A DNA stretch of 63,828 nt, the filler included, from Vannella sp. (taxonomy: Eukaryota), in NCBI GenBank assembly GCA_023345925.1. It is 7 parts of 7 records of this genome, joined end to end, with 100 filler letters (N's around TTAATTAATTAA, not from the genome) between each part and the next. Parts side by side here need not be neighbours in the genome. Positions count along the whole stretch, not along the records: positions 46,010 to 54,916 come from JAJQQN010001153.1; 6 more parts are not named here. The stretch is one strand, 5' to 3'. The notes below the pieces were generated by a model. That model saw nothing but the letters and a program-made list of their open reading frames with translations. It had not been told where the DNA came from and did not search any database. The stretch's first letter is position 1. Every line of letters starts with the position of its first letter. A program made the translations under genes and the position numbers. Shown piece by piece: positions 2,839 to 54,916 of this stretch.

Positions 2839-3905
2839 ATGGCTGGTCATTGGTGGGGACTGCTAGTTGTAGCAGCGTTGTGTTGGAGTGGTAGGTGGAC
2901 TAGAGAGTATGAGATATCCTTGCTGAGAGAACGATGGAGCTTTGGGGACCCAGCCACCTCAGCAGTGGAACTTTCCAGCAACCCAACAGTGCCTGTTCTA
3001 CTCCTACGCTGCGTACTGTCCAGCTGCAAGCGTGACCGACTGGAACTGTAAATGGTGCATCCAGACCTCTTCATTCCAACCGCTCGCTTTCCCTTACGAC
3101 AAGCGGATTGAAGCATACGCGTACATCGGCATCAACCCTGACAACTCTACAAGTACGTTGGGACCAGGAGGGATACGAAAGTAGTGTTCACTATCGTGCA
3201 GTTGTTGTGGCCTTCCGAGGCTCCCACTCTATCAAGAGCTTCATCATCGACCTTCAGTCAGCGACTCTCATTCCTTACAAGAACGTGACAGGAGCCAGTG
3301 TTGGCCTTGGATTCTACAAGGAGTGGATTGATTTGAGTACTCAGGTGATGCCTGAAGTGAAGAAGCTGTTGCAGCAGCATCCTTCGTACTCGGTTTGGGT
3401 GACGGGACACTCTCTTGGCGGTGCCCTGGCCACCCTCTGTGCCCTTGACCTTCAAACTGATCTTCATATCAATGCTACGGTATACACATATGGTTCTCCA
3501 CGAGTAGGGAACGTAGCCTTCGCTCAGTACTACAACAGCCTCGTTCCAAACACCTTCCGCATTGTCAATGGACGGGATGTTGTCACTCACCTTCCTCTCA
3601 TGACCATGGACTTCTATCACGTAGCTACAGAGGTATGGGAGAACCCACCAGAGTGTAAGAACCATCACACCGGCCTCACACCACCAACTAACCTTCCTCC
3701 AGCCAACAGCTTCCGTGTTTGTGACGCAAGCGGGGAGGATCCGCACTGCTCCGATTCCCAACTTACAGACACGTCCGTTTACGACCATTTACACTACCTC
3801 AACTACTACGAGGACTGCGAATCCATCGAGGATCTCACTTTCGCTGACCTGCAACGCATCCTTTCAGGCTCCCACTCGCTCCAAGGCTCATCAACGCCAG
3901 TCTAA
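2839..3905 (+). CDS. Secreted class 3 lipase (alpha/beta hydrolase), copy 1; multi-exon
   Basis: Signal peptide; YSYAAYC, VVAFRGS, VWVTGHSLGGALATL nucleophile elbow, TYGSPRVGN, RIVNGRDVVTHLP, C-terminal DHLHYL. Confidence 0.92.
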
Positions 3906-4020: not shown

Positions 4021-5076
4021 ATGCGAGCGACCTCATTCGCGTGTTTATTGGCGCTTGTTGTCGTTGCAAGTGAGTGGGGCAGCAAGTACACATCCAATGG
4101 GACTAAATAGGGACTAGAAAGCCTCCCTGTTCGCTCAATCGAGTGGAACTTCGGAACTACTGAGCAGTTCCTCTTCTATTCGTACGCAGCGTACTGTCCT
4201 CTCGCTAGTGTGAGTGATTGGTCTTGCAAGTGGTGTAAAGAGCCTGCAGTAGATGACTTCCAACCGTTCGCTTTCCCCTTTGATGAGACGATCCAAGGCT
4301 CTGGCTTCATTGGAGTCGATCCCAGGAACCAAACAAGTGCGCTCCCGCCATCTTACTGAGTTACTTGTACTCACAGTGTATCTCTCTGTAGTTGTGGTGG
4401 CTTTCCGAGGCTCACAATCGCTCAAGAGCTTCCTTATCGACCTCCAGTCCGTCGTCTCGGTCCAGTACAAGAACGTCTCGGGGGCTACCGTCGGTTTGGG
4501 CTTCCTGAAGGAATGGGAAGCACTGCTTCCTCAGGTACTACCTGAAGTACAGAAGCTAATGGTCCAGTTCCCCACGTACTCCGTGTGGGTGACAGGGCAC
4601 TCCCTTGGAGGCGCCGTTGCCACTCTTTGCGCTCTCGACATCAAATCAGTGCTTAATGTTGACCCTAACGTCTACACGTACGGTGCGCCACGCGTGGGGA
4701 ACAAGGGATTCGCTCAGTTCTACGATCTTTTGGTGCCCAACACCTTCCGCATCGTCAATGGACACGATCTCGTCCCACGCGTTCCCATCCTCGCTTTGGG
4801 CTTCTATCATGTTTCTACTGAGGTTTGGGAGACCCCTTCGGAGTGTAGGTACCCTCAAAGGGAGCAGGAGCGTCGTCTAACATGGTTGTAGCGGACAGTT
4901 TCCTTGTCTGCGTAGGAGGCGAAGATCCTCACTGTTCTGACTCCTATGCGACTCCCACATCAGTGTACGATCATCTCCACTACCTGAACTTCACAGAAGG
5001 CTGCGCAGGCAACCAATTGAACGATCTGGAACCAAACCACCTCCAAAGCCTCCTCCCCGGTTTGGGCCTGATTTGA
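4021..5076 (+). CDS. Secreted class 3 lipase, tandem copy 2; multi-exon
   Basis: ATG 4021 signal peptide; same motifs (YSYAAYC, VAFRGS, VTGHSLGGAVATL, TYGAPRVGN, DLVPRVP, GEDPHCSDS, DHLHYL) and equivalent intron positions as copy 1. Confidence 0.92.
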
Positions 5077-46009: not shown

Positions 46010-46172
46010 TTTTCCATTTACTCGTTCAGACCAAGTTTCCGAAAGAAAAAAAAAGTTAAGAGTTTGGCCATTTTTGCCATTTTGGGGTTCATTTCACCTC
46101 GGAAACAAGGCTTCCAAAATAGCATTTGACAACTTTTTATGAGTTTTTAGACCATCTGGCAAAGAATGGGAC

Positions 46173-46529
46173 CAGGCTTCGTGAAAAACGGGTTTGGTCA
46201 TCTAAGTACTGCTGGAGAGCATGAGCGAGAGCCTGGGCAGTGAGAGATGCCTCTTTCCGCTCAAAAGGGAGATCCCCGCGGGTGCGGGTTTTTTGCTTTT
46301 ATTATGGGTTGGTGGGGAAAGCGAGTTTCCTGGAAAAGCAGACAGGACCCAGTTCGCCATTGAGCCCCTGCTTCCGGCGATGCAGCTCAGTCCAGAAGGG
46401 GCAGATTCGCCAGGACTGGACAATTCACCCACTCTCCTATAATCAATGGGCAAAACCCCGCTTTGCGGGTTTTTTGCGGGGGTTTTAGGCTCAAAAACCC
46501 CACTAAAAACCCCCTTTTCACGAAGCCTG
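46173..46529. mobile_element. Non-autonomous DNA transposon (MITE), probably hAT superfamily, 357 bp
   Basis: Perfect 15-bp TIRs CAGGCTTCGTGAAAA (46173-46187) / TTTTCACGAAGCCTG (46515-46529); identical 8-bp flanks AATGGGAC (46165-46172 and 46530-46537); repeated GCGGGTTTTTTGC motifs; no transposase ORF. Confidence 0.88.
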
Positions 46530-46689
46530 AATGGGACATCTCAGGAAAAGTCGCTTTATTGCTCACTAATTACCTTCTGCTGTAATATGTTGAATAACCA
46601 CCCCAAAACCCCAGCCTTTTTTTTTCAGAAACTCGGTCTGGACGCGTAATATTCGTAGGTATTGAACAAAAGGAAAAGCTCCATTTGCT

Positions 46690-48202
46690 ATGGAGGAAGG
46701 GCCTCTGCATCCTTTCGACTTTGAGGCGTGCCAATTACCACGTTTGTCGGTTGAGCAGCTATTGGGCATCGATGGGAGCTTCGCGGGAGTGCAACCAACA
46801 GCAAACTTCTTTCATGAGAGGCTCCACTTCAACGGGGAAGCCGCTTTGTTTGAGATCGATGTGGATGGAGATGAGGTTTCAGGGACAGCGCAACGTGGGC
46901 CCATGCTCTCTTGGAAGGAAGAAAAGGCAAACGTACCTATCCCTGTTAATCGCAAGCTCAACTCTCTTCTCACCTCCATCACAACGTCCGATATCCTGCG
47001 AAGCGCATCCGGAGCCTTCTCTCAAGAGAGTGAACTAGAGCGCAGTTCTACTCCTGAGATCGATGCAAGAGACGACAAGCGCAAGGTGACGGATAAGTGG
47101 GGCTTTGTGGTGGAAGACCCATCAGAGGCGACCACAAACTCGTCGCGTGGCAGCTCCCGAGCTCAAAACAAGCTTGAGGAGAAATGGTTAGACATCCTTC
47201 GCGACTGGAACTCCTATTCAGAGGAGAAGAAGCGACGAATCTGCAAAAAGTTCGTCTTTCCCCGGCCAGGGTCCTCATGCTGACCTTTAATGTGTTTAGG
47301 CGTATTCGCAAAGGTATTCCCAACCGTATTCGAGGAGAGATGTGGAAGGTGGTGCTGGATGTAGCTGAGATGCGCTTGGAAAACCGCGACTTGTTCCAAG
47401 TAAGCTCCTCTCGACCTTCTTGCAGCTCTCCTGACCGCTCAGCGTAGCGGCTACTGGAAGAGGAGTCAGAGTTTGAGAACCAGATTCATATTGACATTCA
47501 CAGAACCCTTCCCCGTCACATCTTCTTCCAGGAGCAAGGCGGAATGGGCCAGACTTCTCTTTTCAACTCCCTCAAAGCCTACTCCGTGTACAACAAGCAG
47601 GTGGGATACTGCCAAGGAATGGGATTCATCATGGCTGTGTTCTTGCTCTATATGACAGAGGAAGACGCCTTCTTCTTGCTCGCACAACTCATCACGAAAC
47701 ACGAAATGAACGGTCTCTTCGAGCCTGGCTTCCCAGCTCTGATCCAATGCCTCTACGTGCATGACCAACTCCTCCAAAGCACTTTACCCCGCCTTGCTGC
47801 CCACTTTGTAAGCCGTACCACCCTCTGAACGGTCTTGCTCACAGAAAACAGGAGGACCAGATGATAGCTGCGAGCATGTATGCCACCAAATGGTACCCAA
47901 CTATGTTCTCTATCTCTCTACCCTTTGAGTTTACCATCCGCATCTGGGATCTATTCATGGTGGATGGCTTCAAAGTGCTCTACAAAGCCGCTCTGACCGT
48001 CCTTCGGCTCCTCCAGAAGGATTTGATCAAAGTGGAGTTCGAAGGGATCATGGATCGACTCAAGAACCTGGGCAAGTACTTGACTGTGACACCAGATGAG
48101 TTCATCACGGTCATGATGGAGTCCAACATCAACGAAAAGCGGTTGACCAAGCTCAACAAGGAGTTCTCCTCCGGACAGGGCGCGGACTGGCAGCCAAGTT
48201 AA
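46690..48202 (+). CDS. TBC-domain Rab GTPase-activating protein; multi-exon
   Basis: DKWGF, RIRKGIPNRIRGEMW, QIHIDIHRTFP, VGYCQGMGFI, EEDAFFLL, YATKWYPTMF, RIWDLFMVDG. Confidence 0.93.
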
Positions 48203-48272
48203 TCGATGAATCAGAGTGACATGCTAATGAAAGTACTGCACGTTTAGAAGCCTCGCGACAGCGGGGGTTGAC

Positions 48273-49850
48273 TTAGGTGAGGACCAAGCCCATGTCCTTT
48301 GCTGCAACAGTGGGAGAGTCCCAGTTGTATAGATAGTACCGAAGCTTGCCATCTCCTGCACCGAACTTGAGCTCTTCTAGGAACTCATCGTTGTCCATTA
48401 AGTTCAACGCATTGAAGACATCAAAGTCCTCCTGCTTGGCCAGGATCAAGGCATCTTGCATCAAGTCCTTCAGAGACGTTTTGGTGGCAACGTTGTAGTA
48501 TGAGTAAGCAGCTTTCAACAGGTTGTGCTTGGGGTGGCCCACAATCGTCGACGGGAGCGTGTAGAAGCTCACAAAGTCAGTCACCTGCTTGGTAGTGGGG
48601 TCTTCGACCACGTAAGAGTTGATAACCCCTTTGCGAGGTACTAAGTAGTGGGAAACCTCCTCTTCTGTGAACACCGGAGCCACTTTGAACTTGCTCATAT
48701 ACTCGCTCAGCATCTTGCTGACTGGGCCGCAGTCCTTGGCCTCCATAGGGCGGATCCCACGAACAGAAGTAGCCTTTACGAGAGGGGGTTAGCACTAGTG
48801 GTAGTCTAGTCACTGGGAGAGGCTTACAGTGGGAAGGCGGAACATTTTGATCATCATGGACATGGTGGATCTCGGGTTCAAGTACGAGAAGCCGACTTCC
48901 ACGAGCTTCTTGGGGTTCAGAGAGCGGTGAAAGTATTGGGTGACGGCTACTGGACGAGGAAGGAGCTTCCCAGCGGTGTAGACAGCTTGCCAACGGTTGG
49001 TCAAGTGCACTTGCCGGGTGATCTCCTGGATGAGGATGGGGGCAATGCGCTTGTCTCTCAGCTTCTTGTGTACACAGAGGAAGTTGATCTCAACCAAAGG
49101 GATCTCCCTGGCCAGAGAGTGAGATGATCGAAGGCAAACCAAAGGAAGTTCGATCTTACTTGTTAAACGAGCGGAGGGTTGCGGGGATAGCAGAGATGAA
49201 AGCCACTAGCTTCTTGTTCTGCTTGACGCGGACTCCTAAGTGCCACTTCTTCAGCCAACCCGGAGGAGAGAGCGCCCTTCCATTCAGTCAGCAACGGGAA
49301 AGATGCTCAACAGGCGGGCTCACCAAAGCAGGAACTCGCGAGAGTAGTCAAAGCGGAAGGTGCAACCAGCATCTTCCACGTAGTTCTGATTGAGGAGGGT
49401 GTAGAGCTCGTCCATCTCCCCCGCATTGAAAATGTCCACCTCGCACCATTCCAGCACGGCGTTGAGCGCATAAGCTTCCTTCTGAACCTGTCCCACTGGA
49501 ATAGAGGCTTGGATAGGCTCGTTCTTCGTAGTGATCTCGTCCGCTACGACGAGTAAGTCCCGTGTACGTGAGGTGACACCCACAATAGACCTACTGAACT
49601 GGGGAACGGGCTGGTCCTTCCAAAACTCATACTCCTTCAGAGTTCCCTTCTCAAACTCTTTGCTGTTGCTCTCCACTGCGATGGGATCCACGTCCACAGG
49701 CGTGTTCCAATAATCTACCTCCTTCACCGCTATTCCCTGCTTCTTCGCCTTGCTCTTCTTCTTCTTCTTCTTTGTAGACTTGACAAGCCCCTCTTCCTTC
49801 ACCTCCTCAGCCTCAGCAACCGGCAGCATCTCCTTCTCCTCATCCGACAT
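48273..49850 (-). CDS. NMT: Glycylpeptide N-myristoyltransferase; multi-exon
   Basis: [16 protein letters not shown]...[62 protein letters not shown]. Confidence 0.96.
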
Positions 49851-50182
49851 CGCCACTCGCCCAAACCCAAAAAGAAGTGACAAAATCACAACCCTTCGCC
49901 CCCTTCACCTACTCCGCAGGGACTTGGGCCCAAACTGAATGCTGCTGGCTCAGAGTCTGATGAGCTGAGTCAGCATCCTCCCTCCTTAGCTTTTGGCACG
50001 TCAAACGCTCTTTCAATCAGTTTAGATGCCGTCCTGGTGTGCAGTGTGAAAGGAGTATCCATTTTGAGGACCTGTCGAGCAACCAGGATCCAAACAGCAC
50101 CAAAAGGAGGTTCTGAAAGTGTTTCTCGACCCTTCAAAGTGGTATTCTGGGCCGGTGTGAAGTGTAGTCAAACGAGGTGCTC

Positions 50183-50990
50183 TTATTCTAGAGTTCCGCA
50201 GTCTGCAATGGTGACAGGGACGCAGATGCAGCTCTTTGTTCTATTTGGTCCAGCACTTCCATTCCCTCGAGAATGGACCCAAACACGCAGTGCTTCTTGT
50301 TGAGTTGAGGGCAGCTCTTAAACGTGAAGAAGAACTGGGAGGTATTCGAGTTCTTGCCCGAGTTTGCCATCGAAACGACACCTCGGGCATGTTCACGCGT
50401 AAGGCCTCCCTTTTCGTCCGCAAACTTCTTACCAAAGATGCTCTCTCCACCTCTACCATCTCCATAGATGATGTCACCGCCTTGGCACATGAATCCAGTG
50501 ATGATTCGGTGGAAGGGCGTCCCTTTGTACCACAAAGGGCGCTCCCGATTGGATTTGGAAGCTCCCTTCTCTCCAGTACAGAGAACTGTGAAGTTTTGAG
50601 TTGTTTTGGGTGCGTTGGCGGGGTCTAACTCGATCACAATTCGCCCAGCGCGAAGAGGAAGTGGGGCGGAGGTTATAAAGTGTGCCTTTCCGTCCTTGCT
50701 CCATTGTGGGTTGCATTCAAAGGCTTCTTGTAGCAGAAGCAGAGACTCTCCATCGAGTTCCTGACAGAACGAGGCTTCTATGAGAGACTAGACAAAGAGA
50801 ACCACTGATCTTACCTCAGGACTCGTCACTGTTACCCCATACTGAGGCCCCACAGTCCCCACGAAGTCACAAGTATGTCGATATGCCTCTACCTGTAATC
50901 CATACTCCTCAGAGTCCCCAATCTACCCCCAGTCAGCACATCACAGCCAAAGGACTGGCCGCCCACATCAATGTCCAGGAAGACCTTCAT
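50183..50990 (-). CDS. Cyclophilin-type PPIase with N-terminal insertion; apparent frameshift near the 3' end
   Basis: MKVFLDID, LCTGEKG, YKGTPFHRIITGFMCQGGD, GGESIFG, VSMANSGKNSNTSQFF, KHCVFG; canonical ending VPVTIADCGTLE* lies in a different frame from IEQRAAS. Confidence 0.85.
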
Positions 50991-51052
50991 TAAAATGATC
51001 CAATTTTAATGCCGAATTCATTTGAGATGGGCTCATTGCTAGAGGGACTGTT

Positions 51053-52408
51053 ATGATGGAAGGGAGAGGGGCCGCGGCTCTATTTGTGAAGAACTTGCCT
51101 CCGTTGCCGAATTCCAGCCTGAAGGAGCTCTTTACTCTTGTTGGAGGGAGCGACTATAGATTGATGGATAGCGGGAAGATCGCTATCCTCTCCTTTCCCT
51201 CGCAGGTGGCTGCTGAGAAGGGTATCTCGGCTCTTGATGGGTTGACGGTGTGATTGATTATGATCAGCTGCTTTCTGTACCTGATGGAACTGTGTAGGTA
51301 GTTGGATCTGTCCTCCAAGCCCGCCTGCATACTCCCACAACGAATCAATCGGAGAATGACCTTCCAATCACAAAGATCCCCCTCCCACCACTCCCAGGGT
51401 ACCTTCCAGAACAGTGAAGAGGAGTGAATACTTACCCTGGGCCTTCCAGAACCTATCCAACTCACTCCCACCTCGAATACGTGTATCCTCCTCCCTCCGA
51501 TGATGTGCTAGCCAACATCCTCAATGCCCTACAACACAACCCCGCCTTCTACACTCAAGTGCTCCATTTGATGAACAAGATGAACCTGCCCCCTCCCTTC
51601 CGCCCGTCCCACACGGTCCCCATCACAATTGACTTTGCTTTGATCAAGAAAGGCCTCAAAGATAAGACAAAAGCTGCCAAAGATGAACTTCTTGCAAGTG
51701 ATGAATCGGAGATATCTGGGGACGAGGCCGAGCCCAGAGAATGTCACTTTCCTCCAAACATCACCCCCACCCCCACTTCCACGTCCTCTGCTCCCACATC
51801 GCATTTGGTGAAGAGACCGCTTCCAGATATTCTTCATAACCTTCCCAAAAGGAGAGCTGCTCAACAGCCTCTCATATCTATTGATATCAAAGCTATCCCA
51901 GTCCCTCCTCTTCTTCCCGAGGCCCAAAAACCCATCACTGCCTCCGTCCAGCATCGTTGGTCATCTCAAGGTGCTCTTAAACCTCATGAGAGTAATCCTG
52001 AGCCACTTGACTTACCAATGGATAGAAATTGCGGAGAGATTCCCCAATCACCACCCTGGCGAGCCTTCGCCCAAACTGTATCTCAAGAACATTGCCAAAA
52101 CGGTTTCCTCTTCAATGCTTTTGGATCTCTTCCTTCCCTTCTCGACCAGGTGAGTTTTTGAGTCCTTCAGCTTCTTGTCGACTAACCGGAGAAAGTGTGG
52201 CTCCGGAAGTGGACTTGAGGACCAAAGGCAGAATGCGGGGGCAGGCCTTTGTCACGTTCCCTTCTTCTCTCGAAGCAGCGGCTGCGCTCGAGGGTACTCA
52301 TGGCTTGGTTGTGGATGATCGGCCTTTGATTGTTGTGAGTCTCTTCGTTTCGCCAATCCCTTTGGAGAAGGAATATTGACTTTGCCTCAGCAATTCGCCA
52401 AGAAGTAG
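51053..52408 (+). CDS. RNPC3: U11/U12 snRNP 65K protein (two RRMs; minor spliceosome); multi-exon
   Basis: LFVKNLP (RRM1); HLEYVYPPP...LANILNAL...FYTQVLHLMNKMNLPPPF; DESEI; PGEPSPKLYLKNIAK; KGRMRGQAFVTFPS...LIV(intron)QFAKK. Confidence 0.9.
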
Positions 52409-52453
52409 AATTTTCAGTTGACTGGCGAGGTCTTGTAATGTATATTATTACAT

Positions 52454-53551
52454 TTAGGAAACGGGAGCCTGTTTGCCAGGGTCCTGGGTGGGGGTGTAAC
52501 CAGAAACAGAAGATTGAGGACCGGAGGCCTCAGCAGTGCGGCGGTAAGAGTCATCGGTGACACCAGCGGGCGCTTGCTTGCCAATATCCGTGGTGGGAGT
52601 GTAGTCCGCAATGGAGGACTGAGGGCCAGCGGCTTGAGCGGTTCGGCGGTAGGAATCGTCACCTTGGGCTGCAGGGGCCTGCTTTCCAATATCAGTGGTG
52701 GGGGTGTACTCGGCGGTGGCACTAGCAGGTCCAGAGGCAGCGGTACCAGGGCGACGGTAAGAGTCTTCTCCCTGACCAGCGGGGGCTTGCTTGCCAATAT
52801 CCGTGGTTGGAGTGTAGTCCGCAATGGAAGACTGAGGACCAGCGGCTTGAGCGGTGCGTCGGTAGGAATCGTCACCCTGGGCTGCAGGAGCTTGCTTGCC
52901 GATGTCAATGGTGGGGGTGTACTCGGCGGTGGCACTAGCAGGTCCAGAGGCAGCGGTACCAGGGCGACGGTAGGAGTCCTCTCCTTGGGCAGCAGGAGCC
53001 TGCTTGCCAATATCAGTGGTGGGAGTGTAGCTGGCAGTGGCGCTGGCGGGTCCAGAAGCAGCGGTACCTGGGCGACGGTACATTTCAGAGACCTGAGCGG
53101 CACCAGCTTGCTTTCCAATGTCAGTGGTAGGGGTGTAGTTGGCGGTAGCACTGGAGGGTCCAGAAGCAGCGGTACCAGGGCGACGGTACATCTCGGAGAC
53201 CTGAGCGGCACCAGCTTGCTTTCCAATGTCAGTGGTGGGAGTGTAGTTGGCGGTGGCGCTGGAGGGTCCAGAAGCTGCAGTTCCGGGGCGGCGATACATC
53301 TCCGAGACCTGAGCGGCACCAGCTTGCTTTCCAATATCAGTGGTGGGAGTGTACTCAGCGGTAGCACTTGCAGGTCCTAGGAACTATCTCGTTAGGAAGC
53401 AGGAGGAGAAGGGGAAGAACCGAAACTCACCAGATGCAGCAGTACCAGGGCGTCTGTACATGTCAGAACCCTTTGCAGCCTCTGCGGTCTTGCCGATATC
53501 ATCTTTGGGCTTGTACTTGTTGGTTCCGGGTCCGGTAAGTGCGGTTCTCAT
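52454..53551 (-). CDS. Tandem-repeat protein, ~347 aa, nine 35/36-aa repeats plus a degenerate first repeat
   Basis: Exons 53551-53431 and 53376-52454; repeat YRRPGTAASGPxSATAxYTPTTDIGKQAxAAQ(VSEM/GxDS); many repeat-to-repeat differences are at synonymous third positions. Confidence 0.85.
52460..53460 (-). repeat. Coding tandem repeat with 108-nt and 105-nt units and a 213-nt higher-order dimer
   Basis: Unit order A-A-A-A-A-B-A-B-B'; A (36 aa) begins YRRPGTAASG, B (35 aa) begins YRRTAQAAG. Confidence 0.85.
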
Positions 53552-53628
53552 GCTGGCAGATGATAATGATTGCTAAGACCGGCTCAGTCTCGCCCAAGTT
53601 CTTCAAAAATATCTGCCCACACGCCATT

Positions 53629-53653
53629 TGATTGGCTCCCGTGAACCAATCAG
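53629..53653. promoter_or_regulatory. Two oppositely oriented CCAAT boxes in a 150-bp bidirectional promoter
   Basis: TGATTGGCT (53629-53637) and AACCAATCAG (53644-53653) between divergent ATGs at 53551 and 53702. Confidence 0.5.
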
Positions 53654-53701
53654 GACGAGCTGGCCTGTGTTGGTCACAATGAGAACACTAACACTCGCTG
53701 A

Positions 53702-54830
53702 ATGATGGAGCAATCCACATTGCCAGTCATTCTGACGTTAGTAGGCTTCGTTCTTGTTGCATTGAATGTCCTGCCCTCTCTGTTGTGGTGAGGCGTCCTC
53801 CTCCTCCTTGCCTCAGTTGGTCTTACGCCACACAGCACCTTGGCCTTTTGCCTGTATCCTGGATACCTCTCCTTGACTGTGGGCGTGTCAAAGCAGGGCA
53901 AACCCCCATCATGGTGAGGAGAATCATCCTTTTCGTCTGGGAGTGACTGACGAGTCAGCAGGTTGCACTACTGGGTGTTCTATGCAGCTACTACCGTGGT
54001 GGAAGAGTTAGTAGGTCCTCTGATTGTCCGGTGGTTCCCCTGGTACTTCGTTGTCAAGTATTTGGTGGCCACCTCTGCTGTCGCTTTTGTCTCCTTTGTG
54101 AGGTCACATTGACCCATCCTGTATGTCACTCAGAATCCTTCAAGGTCCAGAACAAGGGAGCAGATGATCAGGGTTCCAAGCTCTCGCTGAAGGTCGCCAC
54201 TGAGAAGTTGAATGATCAGGTCTCCAAGTCCTCACAAGCACAAGTGGACAACGTGAAGCGCCTTAGTCAGCCCAAAAAGGATGAGAAACCTCCGGTATCA
54301 CCCAAAGTTCACCCAAAGGACCTCAAGAGTAGAGCCCCGATTACCACGGTCCTTCGAGGTTCAAAGGCAGCTTCCTTCCATCCAAACGCTCCAATAGGCA
54401 AACCGTTGTCGCAAACTGATAGTGAGAAGCATTCGACCAGCTCAGAAGAGGGTCTTAACACGGGTAGTGCTCCTCCTCTGGGCAAAGAACGTGACAAAGG
54501 ACTATGCAGGGGTCGAAGTGACCAACTGGACAACTAGTTGGTGGTCTGGGCTTGCCTACTGCGCCATCCTTCACTACTACTATCCTGATAGAATCACCTT
54601 CACTTCTCTCAAGCCTGAGAACAGACAGCAGAACATGGAACTCGCCTTCCGCACGGCCGAGGTGAGATCTCGTACCTTTCCAGGACACCAACTCACCCAC
54701 ACAGTCTCTGGGCATCTCCGCTCTCCTTGATGCAGAGGATTACATCAACATCCCTCCAGAGAAGCTCTCCAACACCACATATGTCTCTTGCATGTACTCA
54801 ACCTTGCGCCTGCGAGTTCACAATGAATAA
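53702..54830 (+). CDS. REEP/DP1/Yop1/HVA22 domain fused to a C-terminal calponin-homology domain (smoothelin/EHBP1/MICAL type), ~298 aa
   Basis: Exons 53702-53787, 53836-53913, 53962-54097, 54145-54421, 54468-54661, 54705-54830 (897 nt, in frame). REEP: LLCTLAFCLYPGYLS...WLHYWVFY...E...WFPWYFVVK. CH: MLLLWAKNVTKDYAGVEVTNWTTSWWSGLAYCAILH...NMELAFRTAESLGISALLDAED...PEKLSNTTYV. Confidence 0.75.
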
Positions 54831-54916
54831 AAAGGCAATTAGAATAATTTGGCGATAAATAATTGATTTTCTGGAGATTTCAAGGAGAAGCGATGTCGCG
54901 GGTCCATTCCTTTCTT

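What the first reader, a model, noticed from the sequence alone, without database searches (positions are those of the whole stretch)
53702..54830. REEP/HVA22 ER-shaping domain fused to a calponin-homology domain
Seen: six small exons, largely hidden from the ORF track, splice in frame to an N-terminal REEP core, a basic Pro/Ser-rich linker and a C-terminal CH domain. No suitable separate ATG for the CH part is evident. Known: REEP/Yop1 proteins curve ER tubules; animal REEP1-4 reach microtubules through unstructured tails; smoothelin/EHBP1/MICAL-type CH domains associate with actin-linked machinery. Inference: a single-chain ER-to-cytoskeleton tether. I know of no described REEP-CH protein. 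The fusion depends on introns 54098-54144 and 54422-54467.
Basis: partly seen in the sequence, partly recalled or inferred. Interest (0 to 1): 0.7.

Follow-up and report, generated by a model that had tools for sequence, protein, structure and literature searches.

The report
ER-bending REEP fused to calponin domain
A six-exon gene of an unnamed single-celled eukaryote likely encodes one 298-residue protein joining an ER-membrane-bending REEP domain to a calponin-homology domain, which would let it tie curved ER membrane to actin; no transcript or relative confirms the join yet.

Summary
Both domains are real: exon 3 passes Pfam's REEP/HVA22 cut-off, narrowly (28.3 vs 27.2 bits); exons 5-6 form a complete CH2-type calponin-homology domain (best PDB hits EHBP1 and alpha-actinin). 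The fusion is likely (about 0.8), not shown. For it: 28 other introns of this window are 41-56 nt, so the 36-nt stop-giving alternative is out of range; a splice model prefers acceptor 54144; exon 4 is coding in the fusion frame (0 of 2000 shuffles match), holds no in-frame ATG, and begins with a predicted long helix where REEPs carry their amphipathic helix. Most likely function: a REEP1-4-like oligomer that shows CH domains on curved ER membrane and binds F-actin by avidity (inferred; single CH2 domains often do not bind actin). It would work like calmin/CLMN, but with a membrane-shaping anchor. No REEP-CH protein turned up in five literature searches aimed at it. New variant of a known kind; interest 0.5.

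The parts
53702..53787 (+). Exon 1 (aa 1-29): start codon(s) and first hydrophobic segment of the REEP core
   Evidence: ATG at 53702 and 53705; hydropathy peak 2.4; no Pfam hit alone
53788..53835 (+). Intron 1, 48 nt, GT-AG
   Evidence: splice score 4.9; only plausible acceptor
53836..53913 (+). Exon 2 (aa 29-55): second hydrophobic stretch and loop of the REEP core
   Evidence: no Pfam hit alone
53914..53961 (+). Intron 2, 48 nt
   Evidence: splice score 9.4
53962..54097 (+). Exon 3 (aa 55-100): TB2/DP1/HVA22 (REEP) core
   Evidence: PF03134 E 1.7e-6, 28.3 bits vs cut-off 27.2; ESM Atlas nearest clusters all PF03134 at 0.79-0.81, a lead only
54098..54144 (+). Intron 3, 47 nt, the junction on which the fusion depends; rival acceptor 54133 (36 nt) would stop at 54186-54188
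   Evidence: model prefers 54144 over 54133 by 6.6 bits with the length term, 1.3 bits without; total score 3.0, weak
54145..54421 (+). Exon 4 (aa 101-193): predicted long helix (aa 108-141), basic Pro/Lys linker, first residues of CH helix A
   Evidence: coding margin 35.1 bits in the fusion frame, 0 of 2000 shuffles; helix in a single-sequence AlphaFold model, mean pLDDT 68; moment 0.36-0.39
54422..54467 (+). Intron 4, 46 nt; its removal creates the codon for Met193
   Evidence: score 1.2, weak; needed because the CH frame has no upstream ATG without it
54468..54661 (+). Exon 5 (aa 193-257): N-terminal two thirds of a CH2-type CH domain, EHBP1-like
   Evidence: PF00307 E 1.9e-11; PDB EHBP1 6zsh/2d89 E 1.3e-18
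54662..54704 (+). Intron 5, 43 nt
   Evidence: exons 5 and 6 match adjacent stretches of alpha-actinin CH2
54705..54830 (+). Exon 6 (aa 258-298 and stop): C-terminal helices of the CH, alpha-actinin-CH2-like
   Evidence: PDB alpha-actinin-2 E 0.0067; AATAAA overlaps the stop, AT-rich tail follows
53552..53701 (.). 150-nt gap between the divergent start codons of this gene and a repeat-protein gene, with two CCAAT-type boxes; likely shared promoter

Best explanation
The locus likely encodes one 298-residue protein in which a short REEP1-4-type membrane-hairpin core is followed by a predicted long helix, a basic linker and a single CH2-type calponin-homology domain, and it would likely tether curved ER-derived membrane to actin filaments. 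Shown: both domains and an open six-exon frame. Inferred from splice and codon statistics: that exons 3, 4 and 5 are joined. Inferred from the known family: the core inserts in ER membrane, dimerises and bends it, with the C-terminus in the cytosol. Inferred and least certain: REEP oligomers line up many weak CH2 domains, helped by the basic linker, so that avidity gives a usable grip on F-actin. Odds: fusion about 0.8; actin as the partner if fused about 0.55.
For: Domains. Intron size: after 248 GTRAG donors, branch-plus-AG ends are in excess at 40-59 nt (152 vs 72 expected) and not at 30-39 nt (30 vs 31.5); 20 training introns are 43-52 nt and 8 further introns 41/44-56 nt. Acceptor: 54144 beats 54133; the AG at 54133 is the end of the best branch word, whose A sits 13 nt before 54144 (mean 13.5); the next two acceptors, 54150 and 54156, keep the fusion frame; AGs at 30-39 nt that would break the frame are skipped in 3 of 20 training introns and 3 of 8 test introns. 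Exon 4 coding margin 35.1 bits vs 31.5 +/- 12.7 in 69 held-out coding pieces, 0 of 2000 shuffles; its first 135 nt 22.8 bits, 3 of 2000. No separate-gene model with its own genomic ATG and up to two extra introns scoring above -12. A helix is predicted at aa 108-141, where Yep1 and REEP1-4 carry the helices needed for function. EHBP1's lone CH binds F-actin at 9.34 uM.
Against: No RNA contig covers 53553-54910 in the 2 runs found, so nothing tests the junctions. Introns 3 and 4 score 3.0 and 1.2, below all 20 training introns (4.4-11.5, in-sample); spurious best scores in coding DNA reach 3.0 in 1 of 15 and 1.2 in 3 of 15 windows. Without the length term the acceptor preference is only 1.3 bits, and the model chose the wrong frame for 1 of 8 test introns. 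The 3' half of exon 4 shows no frame preference (-7.1 vs -7.3). The REEP core is divergent: it barely passes the cut-off and profile positions 56-77 are unmatched; the predicted helix has near-zero mean hydrophobicity. CH domains of MICAL1, MICAL3 and MICAL-L1 did not bind F-actin, and isolated alpha-actinin/utrophin CH2 have KD above 1000 uM; exon 6 matches alpha-actinin, not EHBP1. No homologue with or without the fusion was found.
Confidence: 0.45

Rival explanations
1. The fusion is real but the CH is not an actin grip: it is a protein-interaction or microtubule module, for example docking a bMERB-type Rab effector or recruiting factors to REEP1-4-like ER-derived vesicles or autophagosome rims.
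For: Three of four CH domains tested in PMC7442826 did not bind F-actin, and EHBP1's CH binds bMERB through its last helix; by inspection the equivalents of EHBP1 L534 and T538 appear kept here (mapping partly from recall). REEP1 vesicles showed little F-actin association. Weak CAMSAP_CH hit below cut-off (E 0.0012).
Against: All 49 PDB hits of exon 5 are actin-linked CH proteins, none a microtubule-binding CH. No bMERB domain lies in this protein.
Confidence: 0.33
2. Two genes, or two transcripts: a short REEP (104 aa with intron 3 retained, or 118 aa with acceptor 54133) and a stand-alone 106-aa CH protein that starts at the ATG created by splicing intron 4, transcribed from a start inside exon 4.
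For: The spliced ATG exists and gives 106 aa; a CCAAT lies at 54391; genes here are tightly packed (150 nt between divergent starts); introns 3 and 4 score weakly; the 3' half of exon 4 has no frame preference.
Against: The 5' half of exon 4 is coding in the fusion frame right after 54144, which a 3' UTR would not be; both short REEPs would lack the helix that REEPs need; no intron under 41 nt among 32 modelled; the CH would begin at Pfam position 6-7, losing the start of helix A; no AATAAA-like word between the domains (weak, since AT-rich tails are not general here).
Confidence: 0.17
3. A mis-assembly or a decaying chance join has put the two halves together.
For: The window is a chain of 3-16 kb contigs; the REEP core is divergent; no homologue was found.
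Against: The gene lies inside one 8907-nt contig; no 16-mer of 53600-54916 recurs in the window; GC is even across the gene; the frame is intact over six exons.
Confidence: 0.05

Closest known systems
REEP1-4 / S. pombe Yep1 (Hva22, Rop1) / plant HVA22, the short branch of PF03134
   Same: PF03134 core at the very N-terminus without REEP5's extra N-terminal region, followed by a predicted helix and a low-complexity tail.
   Different: Ends in a folded CH domain instead of a disordered tail; the core is divergent and the last third of the Pfam profile is unmatched. Human REEP1 is reported to reach microtubules through its tail.
EHBP1 / EHBP-1 (NT-C2, CH, bMERB)
   Same: Closest solved relative of exon 5 (E 1.3e-18); a membrane-binding N-terminus plus a single CH2 that links a tubular membrane to F-actin.
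   Different: No NT-C2 and no bMERB, so no Rab8-released autoinhibition; the membrane part is an integral hairpin; the CH C-terminal part is closer to alpha-actinin.
Calmin/CLMN, ER-actin tether (PMC12416146)
   Same: CH domain(s) plus an ER membrane anchor, enriched on ER tubules. This is what the protein would work like.
   Different: CLMN is 1002 aa with more than one CH domain and a transmembrane anchor not described as shaping membrane in the passages read; here one CH follows an N-terminal curvature-generating core.
HVA22-like proteins with added domains (potato HVA22 with three zinc fingers, PMC12954038, search listing only)
   Same: Shows that HVA22/REEP cores do acquire folded extra domains.
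   Different: Zinc fingers, not CH; plant plasmodesmata.

Membership tests
REEP/DP1/Yop1/HVA22 (PF03134) | Pfam PF03134 above the gathering score | tested here: met
   28.3 bits vs 27.2 from exon 3 alone, profile 21-55 of 77
REEP/DP1/Yop1/HVA22 (PF03134) | Match to the last third of the profile (positions 56-77) | tested here: inconclusive
   Not matched by the end of exon 3 or by exon 4 scanned separately; the spliced protein was not scanned, so a match across the junction is untested
REEP1-4 subfamily | Three membrane segments from the N-terminus, no REEP5-type N-terminal extension | tested here: met
   Hydropathy high from the N-terminus to about aa 45, moderate at about 60-80 and 82-100; only about 55 aa precede the Pfam match; criterion from PMC11455953. 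No tree was possible, so this is architecture, not orthology
REEP1-4 subfamily | C-terminal amphipathic helix after the membrane segments | tested here: inconclusive
   Helix predicted at aa 108-141; moment 0.36-0.39 but mean hydrophobicity near 0
REEP1-4 subfamily | Homodimerisation and membrane curvature generation | not testable with these tools
   Needs experiment
CH2-type calponin-homology domain | PF00307 match and continuity through the last helix | tested here: met
   E 1.9e-11; exons 5 and 6 match adjacent stretches of alpha-actinin CH2
EHBP1 family | NT-C2 domain and C-terminal bMERB domain flanking the CH | tested here: not met
   Stop codon follows the CH directly; no such Pfam hits in any exon
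EHBP1 family | F-actin binding by the lone CH | not testable with these tools
   Needs co-sedimentation
CLMN-type ER-actin tether | More than one CH domain plus a transmembrane anchor (tandem CH1-CH2 and C-terminal anchor recalled) | tested here: not met
   One CH only, membrane part N-terminal

The most novel reading that the evidence does not exclude
An undescribed protist lineage has built a single-chain machine that both bends ER membrane and grips actin: a REEP oligomer lines up CH domains along ER tubules, ER-derived vesicles or autophagosome rims, so curvature and actin anchoring are coupled in one polypeptide.
Probability: 0.4. Interest if true: 0.7.

Novelty: new variant of a known kind. 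Interest (0 to 1): 0.5.

Why it matters
How ER tubules attach to actin is poorly known; the CLMN paper says no ER-actin tether was well defined in animals before it. A natural REEP-CH fusion would be a Rosetta-stone hint that ER-shaping proteins couple to actin, and a small (298 aa) testable construct for asking whether curvature-driven oligomerisation can turn a weak CH2 domain into a tether. Its weight is limited by resting on one locus in one unnamed organism.

Tried and rejected
RNA: one run search found 2 metatranscriptome runs, each holding 0.06 of the words; their contigs covered only the neighbouring repeat gene and short cyclophilin pieces, nothing in 53553-54910 at 85% or 80% likeness. 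No evidence either way, and none on habitat. Homologues: CH exon against longer proteins, 0 of 5 candidates; REEP exon against longer proteins, 0 of 58; HMMER over 1.84 billion representatives with the REEP exon gave 2 hits, both repeat proteins without PF03134, rejected; this 45-aa query did not retrieve ordinary REEPs either, so the search was too weak to show absence. Metagenome scan with the CH exon: 1 of 167 stretches, L001, a 70% GC chance match, rejected; viral contigs 0 of 6. The Atlas search for the CH exon did not complete. No whole genome is held. A strict intron harvest gave only 2 usable introns. Two 31-nt intron candidates were inspected and rejected as coding sequence or a wrong donor. 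AT-rich tails as a marker of gene ends: not general here. Lineage: the NMT exon on the same contig groups with 5 unnamed environmental proteins (69-76% identity, SH-aLRT 96, quick tree, 121 rows); named hits are at 63% or less, so the lineage is unresolved. Earlier scan findings: none on this architecture. No complex prediction was sent.

Full report
Context. The window is a chain of eukaryotic contigs joined by N-linkers, about 50% GC, with tightly packed genes and very short introns. The gene lies wholly in the contig 46010-54916 and ends 86 nt before its end. No whole genome is held. The NMT gene on the same contig groups with five unnamed environmental proteins and no named one, so the host is an unplaced microbial eukaryote.

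Observation. The six exons named in 'parts' give an open frame of 298 aa. Exon 3 passes Pfam's cut-off for TB2/DP1/HVA22 (28.3 vs 27.2 bits, E 1.7e-6, profile 21-55 of 77). The ESM Atlas also puts it nearest to PF03134 clusters, at 0.79-0.81 and with recognition below the reliable level, so a lead only. Exon 5 is a CH domain (E 1.9e-11) whose best of 49 PDB hits is EHBP1 (E 1.3e-18). Exon 6 supplies the last helices and is closest to alpha-actinin CH2 (E 0.0067; EHBP1 is not among its 26 hits). Exons 1, 2, 4 and 6 hit no Pfam family alone.

Is intron 3 spliced at 54144? Donor 54098 can reach AGs at 54133 (36 nt, stop after 118 aa), 54144, 54150 and 54156 (47, 53, 59 nt, all fusion frame) and 54160 (stop); retention gives 104 aa. 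Window-wide, branch-plus-AG ends after 248 GTRAG donors are in excess at 40-59 nt (152 vs 72 expected) but not at 30-39 nt (30 vs 31.5). I hand-picked 20 introns from the 50 frame-supported candidates, dropping 30 as duplicate donors of one locus, weak donors or ambiguous cases; where several lengths fitted I chose the one near 48 nt, so the length range of this set (43-52) is partly circular. A model trained on them chose a frame-correct acceptor for 24 of 24 introns in leave-one-out (23 of 24 without the length term) and ranks 54144 above 54133 by 6.6 bits, or 1.3 bits without length. On 8 further introns outside the training set (a ninth had a wrong coordinate and was dropped) it was frame-correct in 7; true lengths were 41/44-56 nt. 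AGs at 30-39 nt that would break the frame are skipped in 3 of 20 training and 3 of 8 test introns. The AG at 54133 is the tail of the best branch word, whose A lies 13 nt before 54144, the typical distance (mean 13.5). Against: intron 3 scores 3.0 and intron 4 scores 1.2, below all training introns (4.4-11.5) and within reach of spurious scores in coding DNA (1 of 15 and 3 of 15 windows).

Is exon 4 coding? A three-periodic model trained on 20 long ORFs of the window gives exon 4 a margin of 35.1 bits for the fusion frame (held-out coding 31.5 +/- 12.7, n = 69; 0 of 2000 shuffles), and its first 135 nt 22.8 bits (3 of 2000). Its 3' half shows no preference between two frames, and the same model misplaces the short exons 1 and 2, so it is noisy on small pieces. 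The frame has no ATG in the genomic DNA, and no separate-gene model with its own genomic ATG and up to two extra introns scoring above -12 exists. A coding, ATG-less exon must be spliced from upstream, and exon 3 is the only good donor. A single-sequence AlphaFold model of exon 4 shows one long helix at aa 108-141 (mean pLDDT 68, pTM 0.23), with helical moment 0.36-0.39 but mean hydrophobicity near zero. This is where Yep1 has the helices needed for self-interaction and ER-phagy (PMC10659188, passages and section 10) and where REEP1-4 carry APH-C (PMC11455953, passages).

Removing intron 4 creates the codon for Met193 at the start of the CH; a transcript starting inside exon 4 would give a 106-aa CH-only protein, and a CCAAT lies at 54391 (one such word is expected by chance in a stretch of this size about four times in ten, my estimate). 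This could exist beside the fusion as a second isoform. It does not explain the coding signal at the start of exon 4.

Independent tests gave nothing. The two RNA runs found do not cover the gene. Five homologue searches found no relative; they used 45-64 aa single exons and missed even ordinary REEPs and EHBP1, so they show neither absence nor novelty. Mis-assembly is unlikely: no 16-mer of the region recurs in the window.

Mechanism. By family knowledge, REEP1-4-type cores have three membrane segments, dimerise and need APH-C to bend membrane; the tail faces the cytosol (recalled). That would hold one CH2 per chain on a 45-residue basic linker. EHBP1's lone CH binds F-actin at 9.34 uM, whereas MICAL1, MICAL3 and MICAL-L1 CH domains did not, and isolated alpha-actinin and utrophin CH2 have KD above 1000 uM (PMC7442826, passages). 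This CH is EHBP1-like in front and alpha-actinin-like in the last helices, which is where EHBP1's modelled actin site lies. I therefore commit to a weak actin binder made effective by REEP oligomerisation and the basic linker: fusion about 0.8, actin given fusion about 0.55, overall 0.45. The membrane could be ER tubules or the ER-derived vesicles described for REEP1-4.

Comparison and novelty. It is a member of the REEP/HVA22 family by Pfam score, divergent, with the short architecture of REEP1-4; it is not an EHBP1 or CLMN family member. It would work like CLMN, an ER-tubule-to-actin tether made of CH domains and a membrane anchor (PMC12416146, passages). Five full-text searches pairing REEP, HVA22, Yop1 or reticulon with calponin or CH terms (listings and abstract starts only) and one on HVA22 architecture showed no REEP-CH protein. 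A pan-eukaryote survey of ER-shaping proteins has 0 occurrences of 'calponin' in its main text (PMC9804665, passages; supplements not read). A REEP review was read in outline and the first part of section 18 (PMC9437294). The library lacks most subscription papers and no domain-architecture database could be queried, so 'undescribed' is provisional.

Verdict. Real domains, likely fusion, untested function, one locus. New variant of a known kind; interest 0.5.

Noticed in passing
window 52454-53551, - strand: Divergent neighbour: a 347-aa protein with about 7.6 tandem 36-aa (108-nt) repeats and no Pfam hit; it is the only gene of this contig with near-identical RNA contigs in the two runs. Its intron is 54 nt and skips a well-placed TAG at 47 nt. 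Possibly a cytoskeleton-binding repeat protein sharing a promoter with the REEP-CH gene (guess).
   Followed up: partly
window-wide: Introns cluster tightly at about 41-56 nt with a CTRAC/CTCAC-like branch word about 10-18 nt before the acceptor.
   Followed up: yes
window 48276-49904, - strand: N-myristoyltransferase groups with five unnamed environmental sequences and no named eukaryote; the host may belong to an unsequenced protist clade.
   Followed up: partly
window about 149-2700, + strand: ORFs read like a class C (Venus-flytrap) GPCR with a Cys-rich LDL-receptor-like stretch before the membrane part; by eye, not scanned.
   Followed up: no
window about 3036-3900 and 4253-4888, + strand: Two neighbouring lipase-like ORFs share near-identical peptide stretches, suggesting a tandem duplication; by eye.
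   Followed up: no
window 50191-52410: A cyclophilin (PF00160) and an RRM protein (PF00076; RNPC3/U11-U12 65K-like by recall) lie head to head on this contig; the latter would hint at a minor spliceosome.
   Followed up: no
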